In this document: one piece after another, positions 1 to 43,738 of the stretch
Position numbering within the stretch: the first letter of the stretch is position 1
How the letters are laid out: each line of letters opens with the position of its first letter
DNA from: a virus
Lineage: Duplodnaviria > Caudoviricetes
IMG/VR virus record: IMGVR_UViG_3300037067_007193
Location: 11,589-75,588 of that record
DNA: 64,000 nucleotides
Strand: one strand, 5' to 3'
Made by a program: the position numbers and the translations under genes
The notes under the pieces: model-generated
What the model was told of the DNA's origin: nothing
What the model saw: the letters and a program-made list of their open reading frames with translations, nothing else
The model's database searches: none

Positions 1-159
1 GCCGCTCATCGTCTCGTTTTGAAACTCCTTGATTTCTTCCGGCGGCACTTCTGCTCGGCGCAGGGCTTCGGAAACCCGTCCGATGATAGAAAAAACATTT
101 CCGTCTTCTCTTGAAAGTTGTACGTCAACATCAGGATACTTGCATCTTTCTGTTTCCAT
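1..159 (-). CDS. small phage hypothetical protein, runs off window edge
   Basis: Not in ORF track. ATG at 159 after GGGGAG; METERCKYPDVDVQLSREDGNVFSIIGRVSEALRRAEVPPEEIKEFQNETMSG, open to the edge. Confidence 0.6.
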   Translation of the reverse strand, partial: METERCKYPDVDVQLSREDGNVFSIIGRVSEALRRAEVPPEEIKEFQNETMSG

Positions 160-295
160 TTGCTCCCCCTGTGTTTTGTCCGGACTTGAGACCGGGCTTG
201 TGGTTTACAGGGCTTGCGCCCTGCTCTCGCCTTGTGTTGGCGGCGGGTCTCTGTTTTTGTTCATGTGCATCCTCGGCATGTAGCCGGGTTAAGGG

Positions 296-487
296 TTAGC
301 CGTTGTATTCTTCGCCGAAAATTTCCTCACAGTGTGCTATCCAGTCGTTATTCAGTTCTTCAAGGCAGAGTTCCATAACGCCTGGAACGGCTAAAATTGT
401 TGCCACTTCAAGGCCAGCTATCCAGCCCGTGAATTTGTCATTGTCGTTGACCATTTCGCGGAGTTCTTTTTGCTTGTCTGGCTTCAT
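296..487 (-). CDS. hypothetical protein
   Basis: 63-aa ORF in a tightly packed leftward run. Confidence 0.55.
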   Translation of the reverse strand: MKPDKQKELREMVNDNDKFTGWIAGLEVATILAVPGVMELCLEELNNDWIAHCEEIFGEEYNG

Positions 488-27795: not shown

Positions 27796-28743
27796 GTGGC
27801 TACAAGCGGAGTGGTTACAGTAAGCACCAGCCAGGATGCGCTTATGCGCCGGGCTTTCAGGCTTCTTGGGATGATAAAAGTCAGTGGAACGCGCCCCGGC
27901 GAAGAGATGGATAATGCCGCCGAAGCCCTGAATGCCATGCTCAAGGAGTGGGATGCTCATGGTGTAGGACTTTGGCTTACCAAGCCTGTTACGCTTTATC
28001 CTCAGATGTCCACGGCTTCTTTCAGTCTTGGGCCTTCAGGGGATAATGCAACGCTGTCCGGTGTCAGCACCGAGACCGCCGCAGCCGCTTCAAGCGGCGA
28101 CAGCACAATCACCGTGGATAGTGCAACTGGAATCAGCGACGGATACTACATCGGTGTTGAACTGGACAGCGGTTCTTTCCAATGGACTACCGTGAACGGC
28201 ACACCCGCAAGTACGACCGTGACATTGACGGCTGCACTTACCGATGATGTGGATGATGCCGCCACGGTGGTCTGCTATGAAACAAAGATCAACCGTCCGT
28301 TAAGGGTCAAAAATGTCCGTTATAAGGACTCAAGTGGTTACGAGCGTCCGGTGGATATATGGGACCGCAGCACGTATTTCAACATCACGAACAAGACTAC
28401 CGAATCCGATGGTCCCGTTGCCGTGTACTATGATCCGCAGTTGACCGATGGCAAGTTGTATATCTGGCCTTGCTGCAACGGCGTGGACGGCGAAATCCTG
28501 TTAGACGCTCAGATGCCGATGGAGATACTGAACGCACGCACTGATGAGCCGCTGTTCGCAAACGAGTGGCAGAATACTATTGCCCTGAACCTTGCGGCGC
28601 TTATCGGCATGGAATACCCGCGAGAGGTAGACAAGCAGCATCTCATGTGGATTAAACGCGAGGCGCTGGAAGCGTATTCCAAGCTCCGCAATTTTGACAA
28701 CGAAGACACGAGCGTATCCTGGGGTGTGCGTACCAGTTTTTAA
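27796..28743 (+). CDS. head-tail adaptor (P22 gp4-like), paralog 1
   Basis: RAFRLLG...AAEALNAML.EW, YYDP...LYIWP, NLAALIGMEY. Confidence 0.65.
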   Translation: MATSGVVTVSTSQDALMRRAFRLLGMIKVSGTRPGEEMDNAAEALNAMLKEWDAHGVGLWLTKPVTLYPQMSTASFSLGPSGDNATLSGVSTETAAAASSGDSTITVDSATGISDGYYIGVELDSGSFQWTTVNGTPASTTVTLTAALTDDVDDAATVVCYETKINRPLRVKNVRYKDSSGYERPVDIWDRSTYFNITNKTTESDGPVAVYYDPQLTDGKLYIWPCCNGVDGEILLDAQMPMEILNARTDEPLFANEWQNTIALNLAALIGMEYPREVDKQHLMWIKREALEAYSKLRNFDNEDTSVSWGVRTSF

Positions 28744-28789: not shown

Positions 28790-29836
28790 ATGACACCACG
28801 CAGCTTGATTAATTCATCTCTGAGGGCCATTGGCGCGATACAGGCCAACGAGGTTCCAACGAATGACATGTTTGAAGACGCCCGTGAATTGCTGAATATG
28901 CTGATGGATTCATGGAGCGCCGAAGAACTTTTGCCGCACGATTACATCCAGGAGTCTTACACGCTCTCTTCCGGGGTCGCCAACTATACCATCGGTAGCG
29001 GGGTGGCTACAGGAGCCACTACGGGGATCGTAGCCGCTGCGGCGGCATCCGGAACAACCCCCATGACAATCAATGCCGCGAGTGTTGCCGACCCGGTGAT
29101 TGTTGCCAGCGGAGTAGCCACGTTAGACATTCCGCGTCATGTTGTAATGACTGTAAGTGCGGCGTCAAACAGCGCCGGTATAACACTCACCGTTGCCGGA
29201 ACAAACACCTACGGAGATGTCATAAGCGAATCGTTCGCGGTTCCCACGTCCGGCGGTGGAACTATTCACGGAACCAAACAGTTTAAAACCGTAACTTCTG
29301 TTACGCCTTCGGCTACAACCACCAGTACCATAGCCTTTGGCGTAGACGCCATCATTAACATCCGCCGCCCGATAAAAATAGTGGATGCTTTTGTCCGGTC
29401 GTCTACTACGGATACTCCGGTTTATGCCGCCGCCCGCGAACGCTATAATGAATTATCCGCGAAAAGCACGACCGGAACGCCCACGAGATTTTATTACGAC
29501 CGCCTGTATCCGAGTGGGGAGATATATCTATATCCCGTTCCGGCGGTGGCAACGCTGACACTGTATCTCGACTTGTGGCTTCCTTTTGTTACTATCGCCT
29601 CGACAGCCCTTGACACTGCCATAAACCTGCCGGGAGAATACATTCTGGCTTTCCGCTGGAATCTGGCCGCTGAACTGGCCCCTGAATACGGCAAGGAAGT
29701 AAAAGAGTTTGTGTTTGTCCGTGCACAGGAAACCAAGAACACCATTCGCAAGCTGAACAGTTTGCCGCCCAAACCGCTTAACCTCAAGACACCGATGGCC
29801 GTTATTGATGGTCAGCCAGCAGCCAATTCCAATTAA
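28790..29836 (+). CDS. head-tail adaptor (P22 gp4-like), paralog 2
   Basis: SSLRAIG...ARELLNMLMDSW, YYDR...IYLYP, NLAAELAPEYG. Confidence 0.65.
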   Translation: MTPRSLINSSLRAIGAIQANEVPTNDMFEDARELLNMLMDSWSAEELLPHDYIQESYTLSSGVANYTIGSGVATGATTGIVAAAAASGTTPMTINAASVADPVIVASGVATLDIPRHVVMTVSAASNSAGITLTVAGTNTYGDVISESFAVPTSGGGTIHGTKQFKTVTSVTPSATTTSTIAFGVDAIINIRRPIKIVDAFVRSSTTDTPVYAAARERYNELSAKSTTGTPTRFYYDRLYPSGEIYLYPVPAVATLTLYLDLWLPFVTIASTALDTAINLPGEYILAFRWNLAAELAPEYGKEVKEFVFVRAQETKNTIRKLNSLPPKPLNLKTPMAVIDGQPAANSN

Positions 29837-29850
29837 ACGGTGTCTGATCC

Positions 29851-32800
29851 ATGCCAAGAGTTCCCTTCCCCATAGTCGGCGGCTCGTATAGCGGCGTATC
29901 CAAAGACGCCAATCCGCAACGTTCGATCAACCTGTATCCTGAATATGACAAGACGGGAGGTCGTAATATTCTGCGCGGCACTCCCGGACTTGTCGAGTAC
30001 AAGGACATGAAGACCGAATCGTTGGCCGATGAACAGATAACCAACGGAGATTTTGCGGACACGGATACGGCGTGGACCCTGGATGAGACATGGGCGGTTA
30101 CTGGTGAACAACTGGTAAAGAGTGCGCCGGAATCGGTTGATTTCGAGGGCGGTGAATCCACTTCAACCGTTCTCGGCTCCGAAATGATAACCAATGGAGC
30201 CTTTGCCAGTGACGCTACCAGTTGGACACTTGGGGATAAGTGGGAATACGACTCGGATGGCGACCGCCTTTCGTATGTCGGCACTACGGGTGAGACAGAT
30301 ACTTCTCCCGCCAGTCCTGAGTGCCTGACCAATGGAGATTTTGCCACCGGTTCTACGAAATGGTACGTCAACTCCAACCGTGGGGCCGCACCGAACCTTC
30401 CACCATCTCCCACCACCAATACCAAGTGGACATTCACTGGTGGCAATCTTGTGTTTCAGGATACAGCCACGACCGATCCGTGGAACCAGATGCGCGGCAC
30501 GGATGGAGAGGAGCATGTCTGGCAAAAACTCAGCGACATGGCCGTTCCGATAAGGGACGGTGTTCCCTACCAGATAGAAATAACACTTGCCGCCGGAGCC
30601 GATCTGAAAGGTGGACGACTGGAGGTGTCTCTTGGCAAGATGTTCAACGAGGCGCACAAAGATATAAAGACGGTCTACAGACGAGTTTTGCGGGAAGAAT
30701 GTGCCGCGTTGCAGATTGATATTGGAGAGTGGGAAGCCGATCAGAATACTTCGCCGGGAAAATTCTGGACCTACGCCCCCGCCACTACCCCCACAAACAA
30801 CTACAGATTTACCGATCCGTATTTATCGACTGAAACCGGATGGTCGTGGGGTATGGTTATCCCACAATCCTTTATGGTGGATGGCAGTACATCGGGCGAT
30901 GTCGTGGGAACGTTCCGCGAAACATGTACACCCCGCCGCAGTTCCGATATGTGGTGCTATCGTCCTGATGGTTTGATGCCCTGCGATGACGCCGACTCCG
31001 GACTGAGATTAGCCTTTGTGCGCGGAACGGAATCCGGATACGCCAGCTTCACGATTACGGGCATAAGCGTCAAGGAAATAGCGGTTGCCGCACCCGGAGC
31101 AGCGGTGGTGGCGGAAGCGGCATCTCAGGCAGTTGCCGACATGGTGGCAACTCCCGCAGAAGGCACAAATTACCTTCTTGAATACACCGTGACCGCAACC
31201 AGCGGTTCGGTTACTCCCTATCTCAGTGGTAATGCCGGAACCGCAAGATCGGTCAGCGAGACCTACACTGAATCCATCAACTGCGGTTCGGATGGGACGG
31301 GATTGGAATTTGTTCCGAGTTCTGATTTTGTTGGAACGATTGACACCGTAAGCATGAAAGAGTTCCCCCGCACGGTGACTACTTACACCCATCTTCCTGC
31401 TCCTGTTCTTGGTTCTGAGATGATAACCAACGGGACGTTCACGGATGGAAGTGACGGTTGGGAACGTGATTTCTATTGGAAGTGGACTCCCGATGAACTC
31501 TATTTTGAGGTAAGTAACGATGCGGGTTTGCTTAATGGGACATTCGATACCGATACGTCCCATTGGATAAAGCTTGGGAGTACGGGAGATGCTTATGCGT
31601 CAGTGTCTGACGGGGTTCTTATGCTGGCTGCGGGAGGGTACGTGGCCGGGGGAATAGTTCTATATCAAGATTTCACGACAATCCCTGGTGGTGTCTACAC
31701 GGTAACTTGGACGTTTGTTGATAAAGGATCGGAATACGGTAATCCTGTTTCGTATCCGGGGTTCGCTTTCGGGTTCGAGGTAGCGGGCTTTGAGTATTGG
31801 TATTATGTCGCTGGAACTCATTCTATAGTATTCACGGCCACAGAAACTAAGTATAGAATAAATATATGCTGCTACAATTATTCGTATATAAAATTCGATA
31901 ATATTATAGTTACTGCCGATGTAGAGGGGATACAGAACACACTGACACAAAAAAACGCCAGCCTGACCAAAGATTTCGCGCCAGAAAACAAATACTATAT
32001 GTCGTTTGATATTTCGGATTGTACTGCGGGGATGCTGACCGTAGCCGTTGGAGATGACAAACGCAATAAAAAGGTGTTTACGACAAACGGCACACGGGAA
32101 ATGTATCTTGAAAATGTCGCTGCCGGTTCGGATGTCGTGTTTTCGGCCAGTGCGGACTTTGATGGACATCTTGATAACGTCTCTCTTTGCGAAGCCATAA
32201 CCAGTTCCTCTCCTGCCCTTGCCCGCCAGTACAACGCCGATATGGTGACTCCGGTTGTAAAAGACCATCTCTACCGGGTGGATTTTACGGTGGAATCCAT
32301 ATCCGATGGAAAGGTCACTGTAACTCTCGGTGGAACACAGTACACGTATCCAATAGTTTCCGCCGATGACTACTCCCTTGACATCGCCGCAGCGGAAGAC
32401 AGTGGACTTGTTTTCACCGCTGACTACACGACAGAAGTTACGCTCGATGATGTCAGCGTCAAAGAGATCACCTACCCACCTTATCAGGTGCGTGGCCTTC
32501 TGCCTATCGGGACTGACCTGTACATCCTGTACGGCCCGTACCTGTCAAAGTTGACCAGCGCCGGGGATTTCTCTGTCCTCAACGAAGATTCCCCGATGGC
32601 AAGCAAGTCAGGACTTGTCACGATGGCGCATATCAAGTACGGCGCTGGCTACCAGATAATGATATGCGATGGTTCGGACAAGGTAGCCTATCTGTACGAC
32701 ACCACTACAAGTCTGTTCACCGTGTTGACCGAAGGCGAACACGAGTTCCAGGGCGGCGGGACGGTCTGTGCGATAGATGGATATTTCCTGTCGAATCAGG

Positions 32801-33771
32801 TCAACGGTGACAGGATATACTATTCCGAAACCACCGATGGCCTTTCTTGGGACGCCTCCGATGACACGCGGGCATGGATAAAGACATCCAACATCCAGCG
32901 GGTGTTCGCGCATTCGCAACTCGTGTGGGCGTTCAAGGAAGACAGCATTGAATTATTCTACAACACCGGGGAACCGGGTGACGCCACGCCGACATTCGGG
33001 CGTGTCCAGGGTGGTGCGTTCAATATTGGATTGCTGGCTGATTGGAGCGTTGCCGCAATAAAAGAACGTCTATTCTGGCTGGCATCCGACAAGACGGTTC
33101 AGATGGCCGTCGGCCAGTCTATCAATACAGTCAGCACCCCGCAACTGAGTTACCAGATAGAGCAGATGACAACTGCGAGTGATGCAGTGGCGTACTGCTA
33201 CACGGAAGAAGGGCATGACTTCTATGTCATTTCCTTCCCCACCGCTGATGTAACCTATGTGTACGATGTCTCAACCGGAGAGTGGCATGAACGACAGTCA
33301 TACGATTCCGACCGTGGCGTGGATGGAAGACACCGTAGTAACTGCTATGCCTATTTTCGGGACAAGCATGTCGTCGGTGACTTCTCCAACACAAAACTGT
33401 ATGAACTTGACACTGCGGTATATACCGATGACGGAAACAGAATAATCCGTCGCCGCGTGACACAGAACGTCAATGAGCAAAACCTGATGTGTTTCTTCAA
33501 TGAGTTTGAGGTTCGGTTTGAAGGTGGAGTTGGCGTGTTAAGCGGTCAGGGTTCAAGCCCGAAGGCCATCCTGAGAATAAGCAAGGACGGTGGACACACA
33601 TGGAGTTCTCCCGTTGAAGCGACAATGGGAAGCCGTGGTGGATACGGTGTTCGTTCGGTCTGGCGCAGACTCGGAAGCGGGCGGGATTTCGCTGCGGAAG
33701 TGAGTGTTTCCGATCCGGTAAAGGTAGTGGCTGTTGACGGACATCTGACCTACGAACAGGGGTATGCGTGA
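29851..33771 (+). CDS. P22 gp10-like tail hub with ~810-aa insert of CBM-like domains
   Basis: N-terminal QRSINLYPE..GTPGL and C-terminal SKDGGHTWS..WRRLGSGRD..SDPVKV; insert residues 61-873. Confidence 0.75.
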   Translation: MPRVPFPIVGGSYSGVSKDANPQRSINLYPEYDKTGGRNILRGTPGLVEYKDMKTESLADEQITNGDFADTDTAWTLDETWAVTGEQLVKSAPESVDFEGGESTSTVLGSEMITNGAFASDATSWTLGDKWEYDSDGDRLSYVGTTGETDTSPASPECLTNGDFATGSTKWYVNSNRGAAPNLPPSPTTNTKWTFTGGNLVFQDTATTDPWNQMRGTDGEEHVWQKLSDMAVPIRDGVPYQIEITLAAGADLKGGRLEVSLGKMFNEAHKDIKTVYRRVLREECAALQIDIGEWEADQNTSPGKFWTYAPATTPTNNYRFTDPYLSTETGWSWGMVIPQSFMVDGSTSGDVVGTFRETCTPRRSSDMWCYRPDGLMPCDDADSGLRLAFVRGTESGYASFTITGISVKEIAVAAPGAAVVAEAASQAVADMVATPAEGTNYLLEYTVTATSGSVTPYLSGNAGTARSVSETYTESINCGSDGTGLEFVPSSDFVGTIDTVSMKEFPRTVTTYTHLPAPVLGSEMITNGTFTDGSDGWERDFYWKWTPDELYFEVSNDAGLLNGTFDTDTSHWIKLGSTGDAYASVSDGVLMLAAGGYVAGGIVLYQDFTTIPGGVYTVTWTFVDKGSEYGNPVSYPGFAFGFEVAGFEYWYYVAGTHSIVFTATETKYRINICCYNYSYIKFDNIIVTADVEGIQNTLTQKNASLTKDFAPENKYYMSFDISDCTAGMLTVAVGDDKRNKKVFTTNGTREMYLENVAAGSDVVFSASADFDGHLDNVSLCEAITSSSPALARQYNADMVTPVVKDHLYRVDFTVESISDGKVTVTLGGTQYTYPIVSADDYSLDIAAAEDSGLVFTADYTTEVTLDDVSVKEITYPPYQVRGLLPIGTDLYILYGPYLSKLTSAGDFSVLNEDSPMASKSGLVTMAHIKYGAGYQIMICDGSDKVAYLYDTTTSLFTVLTEGEHEFQGGGTVCAIDGYFLSNQVNGDRIYYSETTDGLSWDASDDTRAWIKTSNIQRVFAHSQLVWAFKEDSIELFYNTGEPGDATPTFGRVQGGAFNIGLLADWSVAAIKERLFWLASDKTVQMAVGQSINTVSTPQLSYQIEQMTTASDAVAYCYTEEGHDFYVISFPTADVTYVYDVSTGEWHERQSYDSDRGVDGRHRSNCYAYFRDKHVVGDFSNTKLYELDTAVYTDDGNRIIRRRVTQNVNEQNLMCFFNEFEVRFEGGVGVLSGQGSSPKAILRISKDGGHTWSSPVEATMGSRGGYGVRSVWRRLGSGRDFAAEVSVSDPVKVVAVDGHLTYEQGYA

Positions 33772-34142: not shown

Positions 34143-34805
34143 ATGTTCGGGATAGACGATTTGATAGGTGGGACGGTGGGTGCGGTAGGAAGTATCGTTG
34201 GGGCGGTTGGTGGTTACAAGGCGCAGAAGCGGGCGATAAACGACGCCATTGCCACAGAGAAAGAGTCACTGGCCGATCTTGAGCCGTGGCAGGTGGCCGG
34301 TGAAGAAGCCCTTGGCGCGTGGAAAGAAAAGGTGATGGCTGGCCCCGGAGAGTTCACGGAAAGCGAAGGCTATAAATGGACTCTTGGCGAGGGCGAGAAG
34401 GCAATCAAGCGGGCGTCTTCCACCAGCGCCGGGTTTGGAACCGGGGCGATGGGTAAAAGTCTTATACGCCACGCCCAGGGACTCGCCTCCAATGAATATG
34501 ATAAGTTCCAGGACAGGTATTTGAAAAGCATTACGCCCTATTCTCAGTTGGCCGGTGTGGGACAGTGGGCTATCGGAAACCAAATTGGCGTGCGTGACAG
34601 GATAGCAGACCTGACCGTAGACAAGGGGATGGCTAAGGCGAACGCATGGGCAACCGGAGCCAATGCAATCCGTGGTGGGATACAGGATGCGGTGTCCCTG
34701 AGTGAGTTGAGCGGCAACCGCACACCGATAAATACAGGTGGCTTTACAACTGCATCCAGCCAGCCGTTATGGGATTATTCCAAAGTCGGCCAGTTCGCCC
34801 GTTAA
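34143..34805 (+). CDS. DNA ejection / internal virion protein
   Basis: Gly/Ala-rich amphipathic N-terminus; position after tail genes. Confidence 0.6.
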   Translation: MFGIDDLIGGTVGAVGSIVGAVGGYKAQKRAINDAIATEKESLADLEPWQVAGEEALGAWKEKVMAGPGEFTESEGYKWTLGEGEKAIKRASSTSAGFGTGAMGKSLIRHAQGLASNEYDKFQDRYLKSITPYSQLAGVGQWAIGNQIGVRDRIADLTVDKGMAKANAWATGANAIRGGIQDAVSLSELSGNRTPINTGGFTTASSQPLWDYSKVGQFAR

Positions 34806-34817
34806 GGAGAAAGATAA

Positions 34818-35669
34818 ATGTCTCGCATTCCGTTGATACCAGTAGAGACCGGCCCGATCATCGCTCCGGCCTTGCAGGTTGCGAACCAGATAAGAGAAGG
34901 CAGGGCGCGGGTATCCATGCTGGAAACGGAAGCCAAAGGCTACCCCGAAGAAGTTGCTATACGGCGTTCTATGCTGGGGGAACAGTTAAAATCTGCCCCA
35001 GTGGATAGAAGGAAAAAGGAACTGGATATTGAACACGCGGGGACACAAGAAGCCCGTGCCGCATCTCAAGAAGAACGAACCGCAAAACAGGATAAGCGGC
35101 AGCAATGGGCCGATGCTAACAAGATGTATGAGACTGCACTCCCACGAATGAGAGATGCGCGTTCTCACAATGTCGCCGTGCGGAGCATAGCAGAACGGAC
35201 TGGAGTTCCCGTTGAAGAGTTAGGTGGATTGCTTGAGGAAAATATGAAACAAGAAGATTTCGTTAAGCACATGGAAAAAATGATACCTACCTTCTACGAG
35301 GCCCAATACAAGCACGGTTTAGAGATGGAGGAAATCGAGGCCCGGAATAAAGGGCAGGAAAAGGTAGCTAATGTCTATGCCAAGAGTCGTGCTGACGAAG
35401 CTGCTGAAAATAGAGAAGCAGATAGATTAAAGAATCAAGGCATAGATAACGCAACTATAAGAGGTATATTGCAAGATTCTCGTACAGAGTATGGTGCTGA
35501 GAACTATAAGAACGTGGGGACCGAAGAAAATCCGATATGGGAGAAACTACCCACTGCTATCTCGTATGAAAAATGGTTGCCTAAGTATATCAAAAGGGCG
35601 GTTAGTGCTTATTCTCAAGCGAAGCAACTCGGCAACCCTTCCAACAAACGTGAACCCTTGGAATACTAA
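34818..35669 (+). CDS. probable internal virion protein
   Basis: Helical, charged; between the two ejection-type genes. Confidence 0.5.
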   Translation: MSRIPLIPVETGPIIAPALQVANQIREGRARVSMLETEAKGYPEEVAIRRSMLGEQLKSAPVDRRKKELDIEHAGTQEARAASQEERTAKQDKRQQWADANKMYETALPRMRDARSHNVAVRSIAERTGVPVEELGGLLEENMKQEDFVKHMEKMIPTFYEAQYKHGLEMEEIEARNKGQEKVANVYAKSRADEAAENREADRLKNQGIDNATIRGILQDSRTEYGAENYKNVGTEENPIWEKLPTAISYEKWLPKYIKRAVSAYSQAKQLGNPSNKREPLEY

Positions 35670-38600
35670 TGCCATCGAGCATTGAAAAACTCTATACTGC
35701 CGGAAGCAAGTATTACGACTTGGGCGGATTTGATGTCTTCTCTACCAAGATGACGAATCCTGAAAGTCGGCAGAAGGTATATGATGCTCTGTCCGCACAT
35801 TATGACCTTGGGGATTACGATACCTTTGATAGCAAGGTTACGGGGGGATTGCGTCCGGTTGGTCCGATAGAAGAAGCGCCTATCCAACAGGCCGAAGCGC
35901 AGCCACAGACACCATTCGGGATGGTCAACCGTTTTGTACAGGATAGCGTTGCGAATGACCCTGACCTTGCGGGGCTTGACGCTGAACTGAATAATGACCT
36001 GTTCGGGCCGGAAGTTGGCAGGCCGCAATTAGCGACTTCTCCGGATACTGGTGGCGTTGGTGTTGAGCTGGAAGAAGCGCCAGCCGTCCAAGATGACGGA
36101 CGCAGTTATCCTGAAAAAGTGAAAGAGTCCTTCCGCCGTGGTATGGTTTCGGCTGATCTGGATGAAGAAGGATTCGATCTATACATGAAACAGGGATTTG
36201 GTGGAGATGTAGAAGAAGCAACCCAAGACTGGCTTAGACGCCGTGCCGATTTCCAGAGGCAGCAACAGGAAGACCCAGTTACGAGTGGTAATCCTTTGAG
36301 CAAGGCTTTCCTGTCAGCCGTAGAAATGACAGGCCCAATGGCGAAAGGCACGCTTGAAGGACTGATATTCGGTGGTATAGCCGCTGGAACCACTGGGCCA
36401 GCGGCCGTTGCTACTGCCCCAATCGCTACCATGATCGGTGCAGGACAATATTGGACACGGCAAGGCTTCGGTTCCATGTATGCCGCGAATCTGGAAAAGG
36501 GTATAGACCCCAAGGTGGCTGGTGCTATTGCCGGTGGGATGGCCCCGATATATGCGGCGATAGAGTTTTCTCAGGTAAGCAAGATTGCACCCGGACTCGA
36601 AAAGGCTATGGTGCGTAAACTCTCTGACAGTGCCACTAAGATAGTCGCCAAAGCTGCCGCGAAATATGGTGCTGACATATTCACTGAATCCGGTGAAGAG
36701 GTGTTGCAGGAAGTGACACAGATGGCAGCGGAAGAAGGCGCGATTGCAATCAACAACCTGATGCACGACACACCAGAAATAAAACACACATCCGCGCAAC
36801 AGGCGTGGGACAGGGTTTACGAAACGTTTAAGAGTACGCTTGCACCTATGGCTATTCTGCTTGGCCCGAAGCGCATACATGGGACGGCTGCTGATGTCAA
36901 GGCCCGCAAGGAACTGGAAAAGGAAGTCCAGAATCTTGATGCTGACCAACTCAAGTCTCTTGGCCTGACCGAAGAAAAACTGAAAACGGATTTCGGAATT
37001 GACCTGAAAGGCAAACCGACCGAGGCGCAACAGAAACGCACTGATGAATATATGTCTGGCGCAGAAGAAAGTATAAAGCGTCAAGTTTCTGAAGCTATGA
37101 AGCCCAAGGACGAAGTTACTCAACCCTTCACCAAGGAACTTTCTCCTGAAGCCGAAGCCGTAATCAAGGAAGCGGAAGCAGAAAAGGCTCCGGCTGTAGA
37201 AACTGACAAAGAGGTCGAGGACATCCTTTCGGGATTCGCCGAGGATGAATCTGAACAAGTAACACAGCCCGTTTCTGAGACTAAAACGACTGAGGCTATA
37301 TCCGAGGTTGCCCAAGAAGAGAAAGCGCCTAAAGTTGTCCCTACGGCTTCACCAGAGGCTCAAGGCGAAACGATCTCTACTCGGCCTACCTCCGGTATAC
37401 CCCAAGAGGAAAAACCGACAGAGACGGAGCGTAAATTTGTCGCCGCGTTAGACGAAGAGGAAAGATTACAAGCCGAAGCGGAAGCCGTCGAAGAAGAAAG
37501 ATTGGTGGCAGAATACAAGGCAGAGCAGCAACCAACTATTAAGGAAAATTTAATAGTTGACCCAGTTGTTGCAGAAAAAGCAACAACTGGGTCTACTGCC
37601 GATGTTTCTGCTGCACCGGTAACAGAAAAACCACTCGGTAACATTGAAGATGTTAAAGCGCAAAAAGAACCGTGGGAAATGACGGCAAAAGAGTTTGATG
37701 CTGAGTTCATGTTTCATGGCAAAGGTGAGAGCCATCCGCTATTTGGAAAAGAAAAAATCACCGGTGGGGCAACTAAGCATTATTCTTTAGCCTCTGGATA
37801 TGCAACAGGAAGCACTACACAACCAGGGAAAGGAGAAGTTCATCTTGTCCGCCGGTCCGAACTACCCGTAGGCGCTATCCAGGAGATGAAAGATACTGGT
37901 AGGGTGGACGTAATATCAGGAATGGGTGTCGTTCCTGCAAAGTCGGCCGGAATTATACCTACTGGGTTAGAAAATCCGCACCAATATATAATAGAAAAGG
38001 CTCTTTCCGAAGGCCGTCCCGTTTCGCCTGAAGTGCTGAAGGATTATCCTGACCTTGCGGCGAAGTACGGGAAGACTGCGCCCTCTTCGGAAACACCTTC
38101 TCTCGTCTTCGCCACTTCTGGCCGTCCTTTCAAGACTGAAAAGGCCGCGCTGAACTATGCCAGACACAAGGGTTCTGGCTATACCGCAGTCCCGGTTGAA
38201 GGTGGATTTGCAGTAAAAGAACCTGAAGTTACCGCTGCGCCCAAGTCGGAAGGCAAGGTCATATCCCAAGCAGAAGCCGACAAGATAGTTGAAAGAGAAC
38301 TCAACCGGCTGGAAAAAGAAAATCTGTCTTGGGAACAAGATGTGAAGTTCTCGGCAAGGCCAGTTTCTACTGCTACCGCACAGCCTTTAGGCATGGGTGT
38401 CATCCAGGTTGAACGCATTCTCCGTCCGCTCAAGGGCAAGCTGAATATCCCTGTCCGTGTCATCGGCTCCATTGAGGACATAGAAGACCTGAAGAACCGT
38501 GCCGCCGCTATCTACGAACAGCGCAAGGACAACGTGGTATCCGGGTACTATGACGAAAAAAGCAACGAGATAGTAGTTATTGCTGATGGTGTTCACAGCG

Positions 38601-41600
38601 AGAAGGAACTTATCTATGACTTAATGAACCATGAAATAATGCACTATGGCACGGCGGGTCTACTTGGTGAAAAAGGCTATGCCGGTTTCCTGTCTGACTT
38701 ACAGAAGGACAAGGTTATCGGCCCGCAGATAAAGAAACTGGCAGAAGATTATGGATGGGGGTCTGAATACGCCGCCTCCGAGTGGTGGGCGATGCAGAGC
38801 GAAGGCAGAGACATTGAAAAACTGCCGACAAATATCATCAACCGCATCCTGTTCTACATCCGCAAGTGGCTGAGAGAGAGATTCGGCGCTGACCGCGTAG
38901 GCTTCACCCGTAATGAACTTCTCGACCTGATGCGCCAGTCGTATGCGTATGCATTAGGTGGTGAAGCAACAGCCAAAACAGCCGAAGGTGAAACCGCTTT
39001 CCGCGTTCAGGAAAGCGCCGCTACTGTGTTGCGTCAACTCAAGGAAGTCTACTCTGCAATTGAGACGCTTCCACCTGTCAGGAGTGGACAGTCTACTTCC
39101 GGTATCCGCCAGAGGCTTGAAGCCAAAGCGCAAGAACTTGAGAATAGGATTCAAAGCGGTGAAGTAAGGTTCCGTTCTCAGCCTTCCGGACCGCGTCTGG
39201 AAAAAATAGTGCAGGGGATGGAACGCGCCTTAGCGGAAAGGTTCGCTGAAAGCGTCAAGCAGGGATTGGCAGGAGAAGGTTCCAAGAAAGATTACATAAA
39301 GAAACACTATTCTGATCTTATCCGTGAACGTATCAAGGCCATAAAGCAGGGGCATCTTATCGGCGGGCGGGGCTTGAAGGAATCCCTGGATGAAGTCAAG
39401 CGGTTTATTCTGAACTACGCCCGCGAGTACCTGCCGAAAGAAGGTATCACCCGTGGTCAGGTGAAGCCCCTGTTGACTGCCGTTGCCACTGCCGAAAATG
39501 CCGATGACATGCTGGTTGCCTATGACCGTGTGGACAAAATTACCAGAACCGTGACGGAAAAGGAATTGCGTGGCGACATTTCCAAACTGGTGAAAAAATA
39601 CAAAACGGTAAGGAAAGACAACAGACTCAAAGGCAAGTTGGTGGCGGATGAGCAACACAGGGTTGATGACATCAACGCTATTATCCGCATGAAGCCCGAT
39701 CAGGTTAAGGCCGAGATGGAGAAAATTTTCGAGGCCATGAACAACCGGGCGAAAGATCAGAACAATCCCGATGCCGGTGAAGCGACCGCCTTAGAAAATG
39801 AAATGCTTTACCGGCTGGACAAATTTGGTGATTTGCGGCACAAGACGGTGGGGCAGTTGCGGGCGGCGAAAGCCGAACTGGAAGAGATTATCGCCACTGG
39901 CAAGAGCAAGCGTCAAGCCAAAGACGAGGCCCGCAGGGAAAAGATGAATCAGTTTGTGGGCGGACAGCTTGAGTTGCTGACCAGCCACAAGGGTATTCTG
40001 AGCGAAGAGCAGGTTGCCGCGCTCGGCAAGCAGAAGAAAGAGGGCATAATCACTCTCGGCCTTCAGGGACAGTTCAGTTTCGAGTACCTGCTGGATGAAC
40101 TGAACAAGGCACAGAAGGATGCCAAACCCCTGCACACCGCACTGAACAACTTCTTCATGCCGAAGATTCACACGGCGCGGAACTCAGAAACCAAGGGCAT
40201 CCGCGAAACCATGAAGATGGTTCAGGAGAAGATGGCCGAGATTTACGGAACCAAGAGCGCCAACGAACTCCTGAAACTCGCCACCAAGAACACCGTCCCG
40301 GAAGACACTGGTGTCAAGGTGAAGCAGGGTGAAACCGAAGTCCCGCTGATTCTCAGCCAGGAACAGGCGTACAAACTCTGGCAGGAGTGGCAAGACCCCA
40401 CACTTGCCGAGACGTTTGAAAAGATGGGCTATACTCAGGAAACGATAAACGGGCTTGAGAAATTCATCACTCCTGAAAACATGAAGTGGGCCAAGTGGCA
40501 ACTCGATGAGTTCTACCCGCAATACTATGAAAGCGTAAACAAGGTATTCCGCGAACGCTATGACGTTGACCTGCCGTTCAACCCGGTCTATTCCCCTATC
40601 GCCCGCAGATACAACCGGAACGATGCGGAAGATGACCTGATGTTGAACGAGAATAAGTCGTACTTCTCCGGGGTGTACAGTCGCCACCTGATGTCGAGAG
40701 TGAACAATACACGCGGGCTGAAGTTGCTTGGCGGGGATACCACGTTGATAAACCATATCCTTGAGATGGAGCATTTCAAGGCGTGGGCGGAACCGATGCG
40801 GGAGATGCGTTCGTTCTTCTCCAATGAGAAGGTGCGCACGGCGATAAAGCAGAACTTCGGGCCGCACACGATGCGCAAGGTCGATGATTTCCTGAACGAT
40901 ATGGCGCGTGGAAAGCTCGATCCCCGTGGTGTAGACCACTTCCTTGATGCCATGCGCCGGAACTTTACCACTGCCGTGCTTGGGATAAACCTGACGCTGA
41001 TTCCGAAGCAGATGGCTTCCTTCCCGGCGTATTGGGCCGAGATACCGACAACCGACTTTTGGGGTGGATTCGTTGACTTCATGCGCAACCCGCGCAAGGC
41101 GATGGATGTGCTTGCCGAATCCGAAACCCTGAAGGCGCGGTATGGAGAAGGCTTTGACCGGGACATAATGCTGGCGTGGCATAAGACTTCACAGCATGAA
41201 CTTTCCGGCAAGCGCAGTTGGCGGGACATTGTAATGTTCCCGACTCTCGTTGGTGACAAGGTGGCTGTAGTCATGGGCGGGTGGTCTGTATACCGCTATC
41301 ACTACCGCAAGGCGCTTGGGGTCGGGATGTCAGAAGCCGATGCCAAGAAGAAAGCCATGTACGAATTTGAGATGTCCACGAACCGTTCACAACAGGCGGG
41401 CAATATCGAAGACCTGCCTTCCTTGATGCGCGGGAACTCGTGGGCGAAACTGTTCACCATGTTCCAGACTGCCCCGAACTCGTATTTCAGGATAGAAGCA
41501 TCCGCTATCCGGAACCTTGTGCGCGGTCGCGGCAACACAGCCGAGAACCTGAAGCGTCTTGCCGTCTCTCACTTTGTTCTCCCGATGCTGTTCCAGTTTG

Positions 41601-42505
41601 TAGCCAATGGTTTCAGATGGAAAGATGATGACCAGTTCCGGGCCGCCCTTCTTGGTTCTCTGAATGGGCTTCTGATTGTGGGTAACTGGTTGGAAGACAT
41701 TGCTCAGGCCGGTGTGTCCACCGCCATGAAACTCCCCTACTTCATTGGAGAGACGGGCGGGAACCCGGTCTTTGAGAACTTCACGCAACTGAAAGATGCC
41801 GTTATCCGCGCAGCAAAGGTAGCACGAGACGGTGATTATACATGGAAAGACATCACCTTTGTCATCGACAAGTCGGCTGACTTTATCGGCAAGGCTATCG
41901 GTGTCCCGGTAGGCGCTCCGCTGAGAATTGGCGAAGGCGCTTATCGTTTCATGGAGCGCGGGGAAATCAAGCCGCTGGAACTGCTTGGATATTCCCAATA
42001 CGCACTCGGAGAATCAAACCCGAAGCGTCAATTGCTCAACTCCCTGGAAGAATACTACGAAGTCCCGAAAGACGAACGCGACCCGCGCCAGTTGCAGCAG
42101 TTGAAGGCTGACATCGAGGAATACAACAAGAACGCATACAAGAACGAGTCGGCCCTGATCCGGGAGGAAGAAACCAAGCGCCTGTCCCGCGAACCAAAAC
42201 AAGTGGCGATGGAACTTCTGAGTTCCAGTTCCGAGCGGGTACTGAGCGACAATTCTGTGAAACTGTTCAGGCATAAACTGAATCTGGCCCTGGAACACGG
42301 CGCGATCACTCAGAAGCAGTACGACCGCTACTTGGGCGACTTCAACACGAACCAGGAAGCACAGAAGGCCTTGAAAGAGACGTACTACAAGTTGGGCGAA
42401 GAACCGCCGAAGAAATCAAACAGGGCGATACCGGGGCAACCGCGCCCGCCGCAGCCGCCAAGACAGAACAGAACCAACAGAACACCTTTGATATATACAC
42501 AGTAA
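35669..42505 (+). CDS. giant polyvalent-type internal virion protein (2278 aa)
   Basis: HEIMH zincin-like motif near 38630; FHG...HYSLASGYA ART-like segment near 37710; long helical C-terminal region. Confidence 0.7.
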   Translation: MPSSIEKLYTAGSKYYDLGGFDVFSTKMTNPESRQKVYDALSAHYDLGDYDTFDSKVTGGLRPVGPIEEAPIQQAEAQPQTPFGMVNRFVQDSVANDPDLAGLDAELNNDLFGPEVGRPQLATSPDTGGVGVELEEAPAVQDDGRSYPEKVKESFRRGMVSADLDEEGFDLYMKQGFGGDVEEATQDWLRRRADFQRQQQEDPVTSGNPLSKAFLSAVEMTGPMAKGTLEGLIFGGIAAGTTGPAAVATAPIATMIGAGQYWTRQGFGSMYAANLEKGIDPKVAGAIAGGMAPIYAAIEFSQVSKIAPGLEKAMVRKLSDSATKIVAKAAAKYGADIFTESGEEVLQEVTQMAAEEGAIAINNLMHDTPEIKHTSAQQAWDRVYETFKSTLAPMAILLGPKRIHGTAADVKARKELEKEVQNLDADQLKSLGLTEEKLKTDFGIDLKGKPTEAQQKRTDEYMSGAEESIKRQVSEAMKPKDEVTQPFTKELSPEAEAVIKEAEAEKAPAVETDKEVEDILSGFAEDESEQVTQPVSETKTTEAISEVAQEEKAPKVVPTASPEAQGETISTRPTSGIPQEEKPTETERKFVAALDEEERLQAEAEAVEEERLVAEYKAEQQPTIKENLIVDPVVAEKATTGSTADVSAAPVTEKPLGNIEDVKAQKEPWEMTAKEFDAEFMFHGKGESHPLFGKEKITGGATKHYSLASGYATGSTTQPGKGEVHLVRRSELPVGAIQEMKDTGRVDVISGMGVVPAKSAGIIPTGLENPHQYIIEKALSEGRPVSPEVLKDYPDLAAKYGKTAPSSETPSLVFATSGRPFKTEKAALNYARHKGSGYTAVPVEGGFAVKEPEVTAAPKSEGKVISQAEADKIVERELNRLEKENLSWEQDVKFSARPVSTATAQPLGMGVIQVERILRPLKGKLNIPVRVIGSIEDIEDLKNRAAAIYEQRKDNVVSGYYDEKSNEIVVIADGVHSEKELIYDLMNHEIMHYGTAGLLGEKGYAGFLSDLQKDKVIGPQIKKLAEDYGWGSEYAASEWWAMQSEGRDIEKLPTNIINRILFYIRKWLRERFGADRVGFTRNELLDLMRQSYAYALGGEATAKTAEGETAFRVQESAATVLRQLKEVYSAIETLPPVRSGQSTSGIRQRLEAKAQELENRIQSGEVRFRSQPSGPRLEKIVQGMERALAERFAESVKQGLAGEGSKKDYIKKHYSDLIRERIKAIKQGHLIGGRGLKESLDEVKRFILNYAREYLPKEGITRGQVKPLLTAVATAENADDMLVAYDRVDKITRTVTEKELRGDISKLVKKYKTVRKDNRLKGKLVADEQHRVDDINAIIRMKPDQVKAEMEKIFEAMNNRAKDQNNPDAGEATALENEMLYRLDKFGDLRHKTVGQLRAAKAELEEIIATGKSKRQAKDEARREKMNQFVGGQLELLTSHKGILSEEQVAALGKQKKEGIITLGLQGQFSFEYLLDELNKAQKDAKPLHTALNNFFMPKIHTARNSETKGIRETMKMVQEKMAEIYGTKSANELLKLATKNTVPEDTGVKVKQGETEVPLILSQEQAYKLWQEWQDPTLAETFEKMGYTQETINGLEKFITPENMKWAKWQLDEFYPQYYESVNKVFRERYDVDLPFNPVYSPIARRYNRNDAEDDLMLNENKSYFSGVYSRHLMSRVNNTRGLKLLGGDTTLINHILEMEHFKAWAEPMREMRSFFSNEKVRTAIKQNFGPHTMRKVDDFLNDMARGKLDPRGVDHFLDAMRRNFTTAVLGINLTLIPKQMASFPAYWAEIPTTDFWGGFVDFMRNPRKAMDVLAESETLKARYGEGFDRDIMLAWHKTSQHELSGKRSWRDIVMFPTLVGDKVAVVMGGWSVYRYHYRKALGVGMSEADAKKKAMYEFEMSTNRSQQAGNIEDLPSLMRGNSWAKLFTMFQTAPNSYFRIEASAIRNLVRGRGNTAENLKRLAVSHFVLPMLFQFVANGFRWKDDDQFRAALLGSLNGLLIVGNWLEDIAQAGVSTAMKLPYFIGETGGNPVFENFTQLKDAVIRAAKVARDGDYTWKDITFVIDKSADFIGKAIGVPVGAPLRIGEGAYRFMERGEIKPLELLGYSQYALGESNPKRQLLNSLEEYYEVPKDERDPRQLQQLKADIEEYNKNAYKNESALIREEETKRLSREPKQVAMELLSSSSERVLSDNSVKLFRHKLNLALEHGAITQKQYDRYLGDFNTNQEAQKALKETYYKLGEEPPKKSNRAIPGQPRPPQPPRQNRTNRTPLIYTQ

Positions 42506-42517
42506 GGAGCAGTTGTT

Positions 42518-43738
42518 ATGGCAGACCGCGCTTTAATGGTTCTCGCGCCACGGTACAAAAGCTGGAAAAACGACGGCACGGTTAATTCCGGTGGCAAGGT
42601 GTATTTTTATGAGGCTGGAACCACCACGCTTAAAGACACTTATGAGGATGCCGAATGCACCACGGAGAATGCCAACCCGGTGGTTCTGGACAGTCGGGGT
42701 GAAGCCGCTATTTACGGACGCGGGGCGTACAAGATCGTCGAGTACGACAGCAGCGATAACCAACTTGGCGATGCAATGGATGGGATATTACTTCCCGACA
42801 TGACTGCCGCTGCGCTTGGATTTCTGAACGATGCCACTACAACCGCGATGCGCACCACGCTTGGGCTTGGGACTGCGGCGACAAAAGATACCGGAACATC
42901 TGCGGGGAATGTGGTGGTGCTGGATGACGAAGGTGCGCTACCTGCTGTCAGTGGCAAGAATCTGACCGAGATTGCCGCCGGAGCCGTCGCCCTGCCCCGT
43001 GGATACTTGAGTGGATTTACACTTTCCCGTTCTGCCGTTACAACCCTTGGCATTGCAGCCGGATCGTGTGCAGACAGTACGAACGGGGCCAACATGAGCC
43101 TGAGTTCCGCGTACACCAAGACACTGGCATCATGGGCTGTCGGAACCGGAAAGGGTTCGCTGGATTCTGGTTCGATAGCTATAAGTACTTGGTATAGCGT
43201 ATTTTGCGTCTATAATGCAACATCTACGACAACGGATATTCTTATATCCAAAAGCGCCACCAGCCCGACCATGCCGAGTGGATATGGGTATTCCCGCAGA
43301 ATAGGTTCGTTCAAGACGGACAGTTCGGCACAGATAACCAATTTTAGTCAGTATGGGGATGAGTTTCTATGGTTGGACGGCCCGGAAGACCTGAATCAAG
43401 CGGGCGATGGCTACCTTGACGCCAGCGCAACCAATGTTACACTGACTGTTCCAACCGGTGTGAAAGTGTGGGCAATAATCAACGCAACAGCAGGGAACAG
43501 CGGTTCTGCAACCAACGTGTATTTCAGTTCGCCGGACGTTGACGATGAAGGCCCAAGTTCCTACACTACCCCGCCGTTTGGACAACTCAACGTGGCGACA
43601 ACGAGTTTGCGTTATTCAAGCGGGCAGATGAGGATACGCACCAACACCAGTGCGCAGATTCGGGTGCGTCCAGACCAAGATGACACGGCGGTTGATATTT
43701 TCACCGCCGGTTGGATTGATCTGAGAGGGAAAGATTAG
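42518..43738 (+). CDS. tail fibre / tailspike-type protein
   Basis: N-terminal GGKVYFYEAGTTT..TY...NANPVVLDSRG head-binding-like motif; GLGTAATKDTGT linker. Confidence 0.7.
   Translation: MADRALMVLAPRYKSWKNDGTVNSGGKVYFYEAGTTTLKDTYEDAECTTENANPVVLDSRGEAAIYGRGAYKIVEYDSSDNQLGDAMDGILLPDMTAAALGFLNDATTTAMRTTLGLGTAATKDTGTSAGNVVVLDDEGALPAVSGKNLTEIAAGAVALPRGYLSGFTLSRSAVTTLGIAAGSCADSTNGANMSLSSAYTKTLASWAVGTGKGSLDSGSIAISTWYSVFCVYNATSTTTDILISKSATSPTMPSGYGYSRRIGSFKTDSSAQITNFSQYGDEFLWLDGPEDLNQAGDGYLDASATNVTLTVPTGVKVWAIINATAGNSGSATNVYFSSPDVDDEGPSSYTTPPFGQLNVATTSLRYSSGQMRIRTNTSAQIRVRPDQDDTAVDIFTAGWIDLRGKD

What the first reader, a model, noticed from the sequence alone, without database searches (positions are those of the whole stretch)
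30031..32469. Five CBM-like jelly-roll domains nested inside one another in the tail hub protein
Seen: the insert has five domain-start motifs (ITNGDF res 61, ITNGAF 111, LTNGDF 157, ITNGTF 523, LLNGTF 560) and five domain-end motifs (GISVKEI 410, DTVSMKE 504, DNIIVT 688, DNVSLCE 781, DDVSVKEI 873). The order is start-start-start-end-end-start-start-end-end-end, which balances like parentheses. Each outer domain breaks just after its N-terminal W..W strands and resumes at an xQ...Y.(V/L)xF strand. Inference: domain 1 holds two nested pairs (2 containing 3, 4 containing 5), all inserted at the same loop, giving a branched receptor-binding appendage on a gp10-like hub. Domain 5 ends in visibly AT-richer DNA, which suggests a later swap.
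Basis: partly seen in the sequence, partly recalled or inferred. Interest (0 to 1): 0.8.

Follow-up and report, generated by a model that had tools for sequence, protein, structure and literature searches.

The report
Nested sugar-binding-like domains in phage hub
A phage tail-hub protein carries an 820-residue loop insert made of five related sugar-binding-like domains, three of them split open to hold the others, which is an unusually deep case of one domain family inserting into itself.

Summary
The ORF at 29851-33771 (1306 aa) is a P22 gp10-type tail hub of a podophage. It carries an insert of about 820 aa between its N-terminal extension and the first propeller blade.

The insert is built from one module of about 125 aa, which is normally contiguous (184 contiguous copies in other proteins). 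Here three copies are split into an N piece of about 35-45 aa and a C piece of about 90 aa. The order is N1 N2 [D3] C2 N4 [D5] C4 C1. The split pieces cover complementary parts of the module profile, and all three break at the same loop.

AlphaFold models searched against the PDB show that N2+C2 and N4+C4 each close into one complete CBM4/16/22/61-like jelly roll (Z 12-13), around D3 and D5 respectively. Closure of N1+C1 has only weak support from a complex prediction.

A syntenic relative has the same hub with only two nested modules at the same site. Other virion proteins carry two- and three-deep nests of this module.

Not shown: the folds of D3 and D5 taken alone, sugar binding, and any receptor role. 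The GC dip is real, but it covers the whole N4-D5-C4 unit rather than only the end of D5.

Recursive nesting is already known for RNA polymerase Si3, so this is a new variant of a known kind.

The parts
29851..33771 (+). Tail hub gene (P22 gp10 / Hc3 type), 1306 aa plus stop.
   Evidence: ORF listed and translated. phrog_578 E 2e-87. PDB 9vyg_M E 1e-16 and 7eeq_1 E 2e-13. Lies after an Ad3-like adaptor gene and before a DNA-ejection gene.
29851..30012 (+). Hub N-terminal extension, aa 1-54. By homology it is part of the apical adaptor-binding domain.
   Evidence: Aligns with the N termini of insert-free hubs of Rhodoferax phage P26218 and phage DSL-LC05. 53% identical to P0012 aa 4-79. Domain role taken from Sf6 gp8 and Pa223 gp59.
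30013..30165 (+). N1: N-terminal piece of the outermost module D1 (aa 55-105).
   Evidence: Matches module profile positions 3-45, iE 4e-10. Similar to N2 and N4 at z 8-9.
30166..30306 (+). N2: N-terminal piece of module D2 (aa 106-152).
   Evidence: Profile positions 6-36, iE 4.5e-11. pLDDT 86-95 in the model. Aligned together with C2 to whole CBM chains.
30307..31086 (+). D3: contiguous, divergent module (aa 153-412), with an unmatched extra segment at about aa 262-385.
   Evidence: Profile positions 6-52, iE 6e-6, plus a weak match of its end. hhalign probability 70%, E 4e-5, running across the loop that is split in D1, D2 and D4. Nearest Atlas clusters are CBM_4_9, score 0.93. Low pLDDT.
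31087..31374 (+). C2: C-terminal piece of module D2 (aa 413-508).
   Evidence: Profile positions 37-127, iE 1.4e-28. pLDDT 94-98. VIA-align model range 54..452 with about 121 residues aligned to whole CBMs.
31393..31515 (+). N4: N-terminal piece of module D4 (aa 515-555).
   Evidence: Profile positions 6-37, iE 1.8e-7. pLDDT 86-88 in the 271-aa model. Aligned together with C4 to whole CBMs.
31516..31920 (+). D5: contiguous, divergent module (aa 556-690).
   Evidence: Profile positions 14-67, iE 6e-7. hhalign probability 84%, E 8e-6. Nearest Atlas clusters are viral or CBM_4_9, score 0.91-0.94. Beta-rich but pLDDT 35-73. No close relatives found.
31921..32205 (+). C4: C-terminal piece of module D4 (aa 691-785).
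   Evidence: Profile positions 44-126, iE 1.2e-17. pLDDT 87-94. VIA-align model range 5..268 with 123-125 residues aligned.
32206..32481 (+). C1: C-terminal piece of the outermost module D1 (aa 786-877).
   Evidence: Profile positions 52-126, iE 3.9e-17. Collinear with the outer C piece plus hub of P0012. Complex prediction with N1 gave weak support.
32482..33768 (+). Hub beta-propeller and C-terminal extension (aa 878-1306).
   Evidence: phrog_578 profile positions 59-472 of 486. 31-38% identity to phage hubs annotated gp10 or stabilization protein.
31393..32205 (+). Low-GC block that coincides with the nested unit N4-D5-C4.
   Evidence: GC 0.455 against 0.534 in the rest of the gene, p 7e-5. 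1.7th percentile of the structural region.

Best explanation
The gene encodes the hexameric tail hub of a P22-like podophage.

**Insertion site.** The loop that joins the hub's N-terminal extension to the first propeller blade has been opened. It now holds a tree of five related beta-jelly-roll modules with a CBM4/16/22/61-like fold.

**Architecture.** The modules are nested as D1( D2(D3) D4(D5) ). D1, D2 and D4 are each interrupted at one loop, about 35-45 residues into the module, and they close around their guests. D3 and D5 are uninterrupted.

**Shown here.**
- Homology to tail hubs and the position of the insert.
- The split pieces are complementary to a contiguous family profile.
- The contiguous form is the norm in other proteins.
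- Predicted closure of D2 and of D4 into complete jelly rolls.
- Relatives with two- and three-module nests, one of them in a syntenic hub at the same site.

**Inferred.**
- D1 closes in the same way.
- Six hub subunits display 30 modules around the tail, acting as glycan-binding adhesins or accessory receptor binders.
- Nesting is favoured because both hub termini are used for the adaptor-binding domain. Extra modules can therefore only be added in a loop, and a guest whose own ends lie side by side fits there.
- The tree grew by acquisition of ready-made nested cassettes: D2(D3) resembles the whole insert of relative P0012, and D4(D5) has deviant GC.
For: **Hub and insertion site.**
- phrog_578 E 2e-87 on aa 879-1304. 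PDB 9vyg_M and 7eeq_1 match.
- Insert-free hubs align on either side of aa ~55-877.
- The gene follows an Ad3-like adaptor gene and precedes an ejection-protein gene.

**One module.**
- In 194 N-to-C neighbour pairs in other proteins the median gap is -6 aa, so N and C abut.
- Architectures among the hits: NC in 74 proteins, NCNC in 31.

**Complementarity.**
- N1/C1 cover profile positions 3-45 / 52-126; N2/C2 cover 6-36 / 37-127; N4/C4 cover 6-37 / 44-126.
- Joined halves give single hits over positions 7-126 at E 1e-27 to 1e-37.

**Structure.**
- Model of aa 55-880: N2 and C2 have pLDDT 86-98. Matches over model range 54..452 are 8xmz_B (Z 12.5, rmsd 2.6, 121 of 137 residues) and CBM16 2zew_A (Z 12.1).
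- Model of aa 515-785, pLDDT 70: TmCBM61 2xom_A (Z 12.9, 125 of 145 residues, range 7..268) and 2zew_A (Z 12.8).
- N1 with C1 as two chains: weak support. Score 0.56, best of 3 controls 0.00. That mark was reached by 58 of 80 solved complexes and 2 of 110 mismatched pairs. Scores of 0.60 or under came from only 7 of those 80 solved complexes and from both mismatches that passed. Partner pLDDT at least 79; the runs agree in at least 98% of contacts. My own alignments were used, and the pass may reflect likeness to solved CBMs.

**Relatives.**
- Hubs P0012, P0151 and P0152 (42-46% identity) have outer N, an inner module and outer C at the same site.
- The P0152 locus is syntenic with the window.
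- P0002 is nested three deep; P0018 and P0022 are nested two deep.

**Pairing.** The outer N of P0012 is closest to N2 and its outer C is closest to C2. For P0151 and P0152 the closest pieces are N1 and C1.

**Not an assembly artefact.** Only 15-36 nt degenerate DNA repeats occur in the gene.
Against: - The two AlphaFold models were guided by alignments in which contiguous relatives were laid across the gap. Confidence follows alignment coverage, so they are homology models rather than independent proof.
- No coordinates or contact maps were available. Closure is read from alignment ranges only.
- D3 and D5 have low pLDDT and match only the first half of the profile.
- The D1 pairing has only a weak complex score.
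- Every N/C combination scores alike against the profile. A family-wide test of N/C co-affinity was not significant (chi-square p 0.11).
- No Pfam CBM family reaches its cut-off, and no sugar-binding residues were identified.
Confidence: 0.8

Rival explanations
1. Ordinary beads on a string. The N pieces (about 40 aa) and C pieces (about 90 aa) are separate small domains that fold on their own, arranged in tandem and not nested.
For: A few database proteins show C-only or NCC patterns with my short profiles, which could mean that C pieces can stand alone. Much of the whole-insert model has low confidence.
Against: N abuts C in 194 neighbour pairs elsewhere, median gap -6 aa. The pieces match complementary and non-overlapping parts of one 130-position profile. 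Whole CBM chains align across N2+C2 and N4+C4 with about 121-125 residues. The C-only cases can be explained by the low sensitivity of the 37-position N profile.
Confidence: 0.05
2. The halves do reunite, but not as balanced parentheses within one chain. Either they pair crosswise (for example N1 with C4), or they swap between neighbouring subunits of the hexamer, tying the appendages together.
For: Every N/C combination scores alike against the profile. In the whole-insert model N1 and C4 are confident while N4 and C1 are not. The hub is hexameric by homology, so swapping is geometrically conceivable.
Against: The confidence pattern simply follows alignment coverage. The 271-aa model closes N4 with C4. 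Relatives show matched affinities: P0012 with N2 and C2, P0151 and P0152 with N1 and C1. Stepwise insertion of whole units produces only the balanced pairing. Relatives with two or three modules are also balanced.
Confidence: 0.08
3. The nested architecture is real, but the modules are not receptor binders. They could be a structural collar, a scaffold for fibres, or a shield of the tail tip, with the CBM-like fold used only as a sturdy building block.
For: No Pfam CBM family passes its cut-off. The same fold occurs in MAM, ephrin-receptor and reelin domains that bind proteins. The phage also has a separate candidate fibre gene at 42518-43738.
Against: The top structural matches are all sugar-binding modules: porphyran-binding CBM, CBM16, CBM61, CBM4, CBM22. 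The language-model neighbours of D3 and D5 are CBM_4_9 clusters. Copy number and inner modules vary between close relatives, which is the pattern expected of host-range parts.
Confidence: 0.3

Closest known systems
Tail hubs of P22-like podophages: P22 gp10, Sf6 gp8 (PMC9728967), Pa223 gp59 (bioRxiv 10.1101/2025.06.11.659172), and PDB 9vyg_M and 7eeq_1.
   Same: Sequence homology over the six-bladed propeller and the C-terminal extension. Same gene position. The N- and C-terminal extensions are expected to form the adaptor-binding apical domain.
   Different: Those hubs have about 440-515 aa. This one has 1306 aa, with about 820 aa inserted between the N-terminal extension and blade 1. In the papers read here, the described outward feature is a short fibre-attachment loop, not a domain tree.
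'Evolved' Dit and Tal proteins of siphophages of lactic acid bacteria, in which CBMs are inserted into loops of a structural tail protein (PMC7533335, PMC8540738, PMC9437275).
   Same: Sugar-binding-like jelly rolls are added to an oligomeric tail structural protein by loop insertion, giving a multivalent adhesion device.
   Different: The host protein is different (Dit galectin domain against podophage hub), and so is the phage type. From my reading of the search output, those are single-level insertions. No recursive self-nesting turned up in my searches.
Si3 insertion of cyanobacterial RNA polymerase beta', with up to six levels of nested domains (PMC13114784).
   Same: Recursive insertion of domains into domains inside one loop of a large structural protein. 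This shows that deep nesting is a known architecture.
   Different: Here the tree is also branched, with two guests side by side in D1. The hosts (about 125 aa) are much smaller than their guests, the reverse of the general rule reported in that paper (hosts median 199 aa, inserts 115 aa).
CBM families 4, 9, 16, 22 and 61, and a porphyran-binding CBM (PDB 1gui, 2zew, 4xuo, 2xom, 8xmz).
   Same: Beta-jelly-roll fold. 121-127 residues align at rmsd 2.5-3.0 and Z 11.5-12.9 over nearly the whole CBM chain.
   Different: Sequence identity is only 10-20%. No Pfam CBM profile reaches its cut-off. Ligand binding is unknown.

Membership tests
P22 gp10-type tail hub (PHROG 578 'head closure Hc3'; Pfam PF11134 Phage_stabilise) | Sequence match to the family profile over the propeller and C-terminal extension. 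| tested here: met
   phrog_578 E 2e-87, aa 879-1304 on profile positions 59-472 of 486. PDB 9vyg_M 'stabilization protein' E 1e-16. PF11134 is listed as a precomputed hit. The Pfam scan run here did not list PF11134, so Pfam's own cut-off was not confirmed.
P22 gp10-type tail hub | Gene sits between the head-to-tail adaptor (gp4/Ad3) gene and the ejection-protein genes. | tested here: met
   28790-29836 has an Ad3 N terminus plus phrog_12985. 34143-34805 matches phrog_598 'DNA ejection'. Same gene order as in Rhodoferax phage P26218 and phage DSL-LC05.
P22 gp10-type tail hub | Forms a hexamer that binds the adaptor ring and closes on a needle or plug. | not testable with these tools
   Known for Sf6 gp8 and Pa223 gp59. 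Needs cryo-EM of this virion.
CBM4/9/16/22/61-like beta-jelly roll (galactose-binding-domain-like superfamily) | Complete jelly-roll fold. | tested here: met
   Met for D2 (N2+C2) and D4 (N4+C4): Z 12.1-12.9, rmsd 2.6-3.0, 121-125 residues over whole CBM chains. The models were guided by alignments. D1, D3 and D5 were not tested by structure.
Pfam CBM_4_9 (PF02018) | Score above Pfam's curated cut-off. | tested here: not met
   No hit at E < 1 on the protein or on D3 and D5. Among 29 contiguous relatives, 3 give sub-threshold hits, best E 0.012. The relative P0152 has a weak precomputed PF02018 hit.
Carbohydrate-binding module (functional sense) | Binds a carbohydrate. | not testable with these tools
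   Fold resemblance only. Needs glycan arrays or host-cell binding assays.
Nested (recursive) domain insertion, A1-B1-C-B2-A2 type | The host domain's sequence is interrupted, and the two parts are complementary to a contiguous homologue. | tested here: met
   Profile coordinates of N and C pieces are complementary for D1, D2 and D4. Joined halves give single full-length hits. Contiguous homologues are the norm.
Nested (recursive) domain insertion | The two parts of the host domain reunite in three dimensions. | tested here: inconclusive
   Predicted for D2 and D4. For D1 there is only a weak complex score, 0.56 against a best control of 0.00. No coordinates and no experiment.

The most novel reading that the evidence does not exclude
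This roughly 125-aa phage module family may be a self-nesting building block. One loop, at about profile positions 36-52, accepts whole copies or whole nested cassettes of the same family. Phages would then grow branched, multivalent receptor-binding trees from a single loop of virion proteins whose termini are buried, such as the hub and adaptor paralogues. Exchanging cassettes would retune host range. The five-module, three-level, branched tree seen here would be the deepest example found here.
Probability: 0.45. Interest if true: 0.7.

Novelty: new variant of a known kind. Interest (0 to 1): 0.6.

Why it matters
- **Protein evolution and design.** It gives a clear natural example of recursive, same-family domain insertion outside RNA polymerase. 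Small hosts (about 125 aa) carry guests of up to about 690 aa at one permissive loop.
- **Phage biology.** It points to the tail hub itself, and in relatives an adaptor paralogue, as a carrier of variable adhesin modules in a group of uncultured podophages. At least 237 hub homologues of 718-2286 aa, long enough to carry large extra segments, exist in the sequence databases.
- **Host range.** If the modules bind host glycans, the hub would be a host-range determinant that annotation pipelines currently label only as 'stabilization protein'.

Tried and rejected
- **BLASTP of the insert against itself** returned only the identity alignment. I replaced it with piecewise Smith-Waterman comparisons against shuffles.
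- **Close relatives in viral contigs:** none found with the whole protein as query.
- **Phage GenBank records:** none match the insert, only the hub part.
- **D5 relatives by the word-index search** (longer proteins): only the protein itself was found, so D5 had no alignment for folding.
- **Foldseek on the 826-aa model:** only weak, whole-model matches with TM about 0.08, although they were to CBM-containing proteins. The VIA-align search was the informative one.
- **Profile of 29 contiguous modules against PDB sequences:** nothing below E 0.08.
- **Family-wide test of N/C co-affinity.** I asked whether modules closest to a given N piece are also closest to its proposed C partner. Across 184 modules the result was not significant (chi-square p 0.11) and the correlations were mixed. 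Only the three hub relatives were informative.
- **Other copies in the window:** the module occurs nowhere else in the six-frame translation.
- **Assembly artefact** was rejected. The gene contains only 15-36 nt degenerate direct repeats.
- **Literature searches** for nested jelly-roll or CBM insertions in phages found nothing specific.
Full report
**Gene and context**

The finding lies inside one ORF, 29851-33771 on the + strand, 1306 aa. The window is part of a 75.6-kb IMG/VR virus record estimated to be about 90% complete.

PHROG profiles place the gene in a podophage neck and tail block:
- a portal gene at 16847-18886;
- two adaptor-like genes at 27796-28743 and 28790-29836 (both phrog_12985, the second with an Ad3 N terminus);
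- this gene;
- a 'DNA ejection' gene at 34143-34805.

The protein matches phrog_578, 'head closure Hc3' (the P22 gp10 class), at E 2e-87. Residues 879-1304 fall on profile positions 59-472 of 486. It also matches the solved hub-type chains 9vyg_M and 7eeq_1 at E 1e-16 and 2e-13. Forty-six phage records match only residues ~880-1280 and never the insert.

Alignment with the insert-free hubs of Rhodoferax phage P26218 and phage DSL-LC05 places the extra ~820 residues between '...GTPGLVEYKDM' and 'PYQVRGLLPIG'. In Sf6 gp8 and Pa223 gp59 the first ~46-50 residues and the C-terminal extension together form the apical, adaptor-binding domain, and the propeller follows. By homology, the insert therefore sits at the junction between that N-terminal extension and blade 1.

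**The observation**

Cutting the insert at the proposed borders and comparing the pieces against shuffles gave clear results:
- The three N pieces (55-105, 106-152, 515-555) resemble one another at z 8-10.
- The three C pieces (413-506, 691-783, 784-875) resemble one another at z 8.5-9.
- N pieces do not resemble C pieces.

**Is N plus C one domain?**

A phmmer search of residues 55-880 against 1.84 billion representative proteins gave 314 hits at E <= 1e-3.

Small hits of 125-150 aa carry an N-type segment directly followed by a C-type segment. With profiles built for N and for C, the commonest architectures among the 150 best hits are NC (74 proteins) and NCNC (31 proteins). In 194 N-to-C neighbour pairs the median gap is -6 residues, so the two profiles abut.

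A 130-position profile built from 184 such contiguous modules matches the window's protein in complementary parts:

| Piece | Profile positions |
|---|---|
| N1 | 3-45 |
| C1 | 52-126 |
| N2 | 6-36 |
| C2 | 37-127 |
| N4 | 6-37 |
| C4 | 44-126 |
| D3 | 6-52, plus a weak match of its last strand |
| D5 | 14-67 |

Joining the halves in a script gives one full-length hit each (positions 7-126) at E 1e-27 to 1e-37. All three interruptions fall in the same loop.

hhalign shows that D3 and D5 run uninterrupted across that loop (probability 70% and 84%). The insert therefore has three split modules and two contiguous, divergent ones, in the order N1 N2 [D3] C2 N4 [D5] C4 C1.

**Structure**

AlphaFold2 on residues 55-880 gave mean pLDDT 55. 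Confidence was high only where the alignment had coverage, namely N1, N2, C2 and C4.

A search of 48,161 PDB chains with VIA-align returned carbohydrate-binding modules as the best matches:
- the porphyran-binding CBM 8xmz_B (Z 12.5, rmsd 2.6, 121 of 137 residues);
- CBM16 2zew_A (Z 12.1);
- further down, CBM61, CBM4-2 and CBM22.

All align to model range ~54..452 with only ~121-124 aligned residues. So N2 and C2 together make one complete jelly roll around the ~280 residues of D3.

A second model, of residues 515-785, had pLDDT 70. It gave the same picture for N4 and C4 around D5: TmCBM61 2xom_A at Z 12.9 with 125 of 145 residues over range 7..268, and CBM16 at Z 12.8.

These models were guided by alignments in which contiguous relatives span the gap, so they amount to homology modelling. 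No coordinates were available to me.

For the outermost pair I folded N1 and C1 as two chains. The verdict was weak support:
- score 0.56, best of 3 controls 0.00;
- that mark was reached by 58 of 80 solved complexes and 2 of 110 mismatched pairs;
- scores of 0.60 or under came from only 7 of those 80 solved complexes and from both mismatches that passed;
- partner pLDDT at least 79, and the runs agree in at least 98% of contacts;
- my own alignments were used, and the pass may reflect likeness to solved CBMs.

**Relatives with fewer copies**

A search for long hub homologues (718-2286 aa) found 237 at E <= 1e-5. Hubs of this size, with room for large extra segments, are therefore common in metagenomes. 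In the rows I inspected, many resume hub homology only after residue ~330-800.

Only the three closest (P0012, P0151 and P0152, 42-46% identical) carry this module. In each, an outer N piece (profile ~4-45), an inner whole module and an outer C piece (profile ~44-127) occupy the same hub site, aa ~50-330.

The P0152 locus is syntenic with the window: adaptor of 345 aa, hub, a 47-aa gene, then genes of 222 aa, 306 aa and more than 2000 aa.

Other proteins nest the same module at the same loop:
- P0018 and P0022 are nested two deep.
- P0002 is nested three deep (N N [whole module] C C).

P0002 is a phrog_12985 adaptor-like protein encoded just upstream of a 603-aa hub.

**Which N goes with which C?**

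Profile scores do not discriminate between pairings, and a family-wide association test was not significant.

The hub relatives do help:
- The outer N of P0012 is closest to N2 (113 against 67 and 65), and its outer C is closest to C2 (156 against 94 and 83).
- For P0151 and P0152 the closest pieces are N1 and C1.
- The inner module of P0012 resembles D3 (z 6.6). Its whole insert therefore looks like the D2(D3) cassette, while its flanks are collinear with N1 and C1.

Together with the fact that stepwise insertion of whole units can only give balanced pairings, I take the parenthesis pairing as by far the most likely.

**Composition**

The N4-D5-C4 unit has GC 0.455 against 0.534 for the rest of the gene (p 7e-5). 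It lies in the lowest 1.7% of equal-sized windows of the structural region. This fits later acquisition of the nested pair as one cassette. That remains an inference.

The gene contains only short, degenerate DNA repeats. The architecture is therefore old and is not an assembly artefact.

**Comparison with what is known**

- No Pfam family reaches its cut-off on the module. CBM_4_9, DUF642 and GalBD_like appear only below threshold. PHROG 30593 (unknown function) matches its first half.
- CBM insertion into tail structural proteins is known from the 'evolved' Dit proteins of siphophages.
- Recursive nesting up to six levels is known from the Si3 insertion of cyanobacterial RNA polymerase. The same survey reports that inserts are usually smaller than their hosts (PMC13114784). 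The reverse holds here.
- I found no description of a podophage hub with such an insert, or of self-nested CBM-like modules.

**Verdict**

I file it as a new variant of a known kind. Sugar or receptor binding remains untested.

Noticed in passing
window 27796-28743 and 28790-29836 (+): Two adjacent adaptor-like genes both match phrog_12985, and the second also has an Ad3 (gp4-like) N terminus. In a related contig a third paralogue of this family (P0002, 747 aa) carries a three-deep nest of the same module just upstream of a 603-aa hub. Two adaptor rings encoded by two genes are reported for phage GP4.
   Followed up: partly
P0153-P0268 (hub homologues): At least 237 PF11134 hub homologues have 718-2286 aa. 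Most lack this module. In many, hub homology resumes only after residue ~330-800, and some carry precomputed SPRY, Laminin_G_3, CBM_4_9 or SGL-type hits. This suggests that this loop is a general hot spot for decorations.
   Followed up: partly
window ~30634-31005 (aa ~262-385 of the hub, inside D3): D3 holds an extra segment of about 80-120 aa with several cysteines (the '...CTPRRSSDMWCYRPDGLMPCDD...' region). It matches nothing in the module profile and is modelled with very low confidence. It may be a further loop elaboration at a second site.
   Followed up: no
window ~2000-2700: Sharp GC trough, down to 0.23 in 450-nt windows against a window mean of 0.50.
   Followed up: no
window 35669-42505 (+): A 2278-aa ORF follows the ejection genes. 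The syntenic relative L004 has a product of more than 2099 aa in the same position.
   Followed up: no
window 30169-30197 and 31405-31433: The peptide VLGSEMITNG that opens N2 and N4 is encoded by 29-nt stretches that are 83% identical. This is the longest DNA similarity between modules and a possible recombination point for cassette exchange.
   Followed up: no
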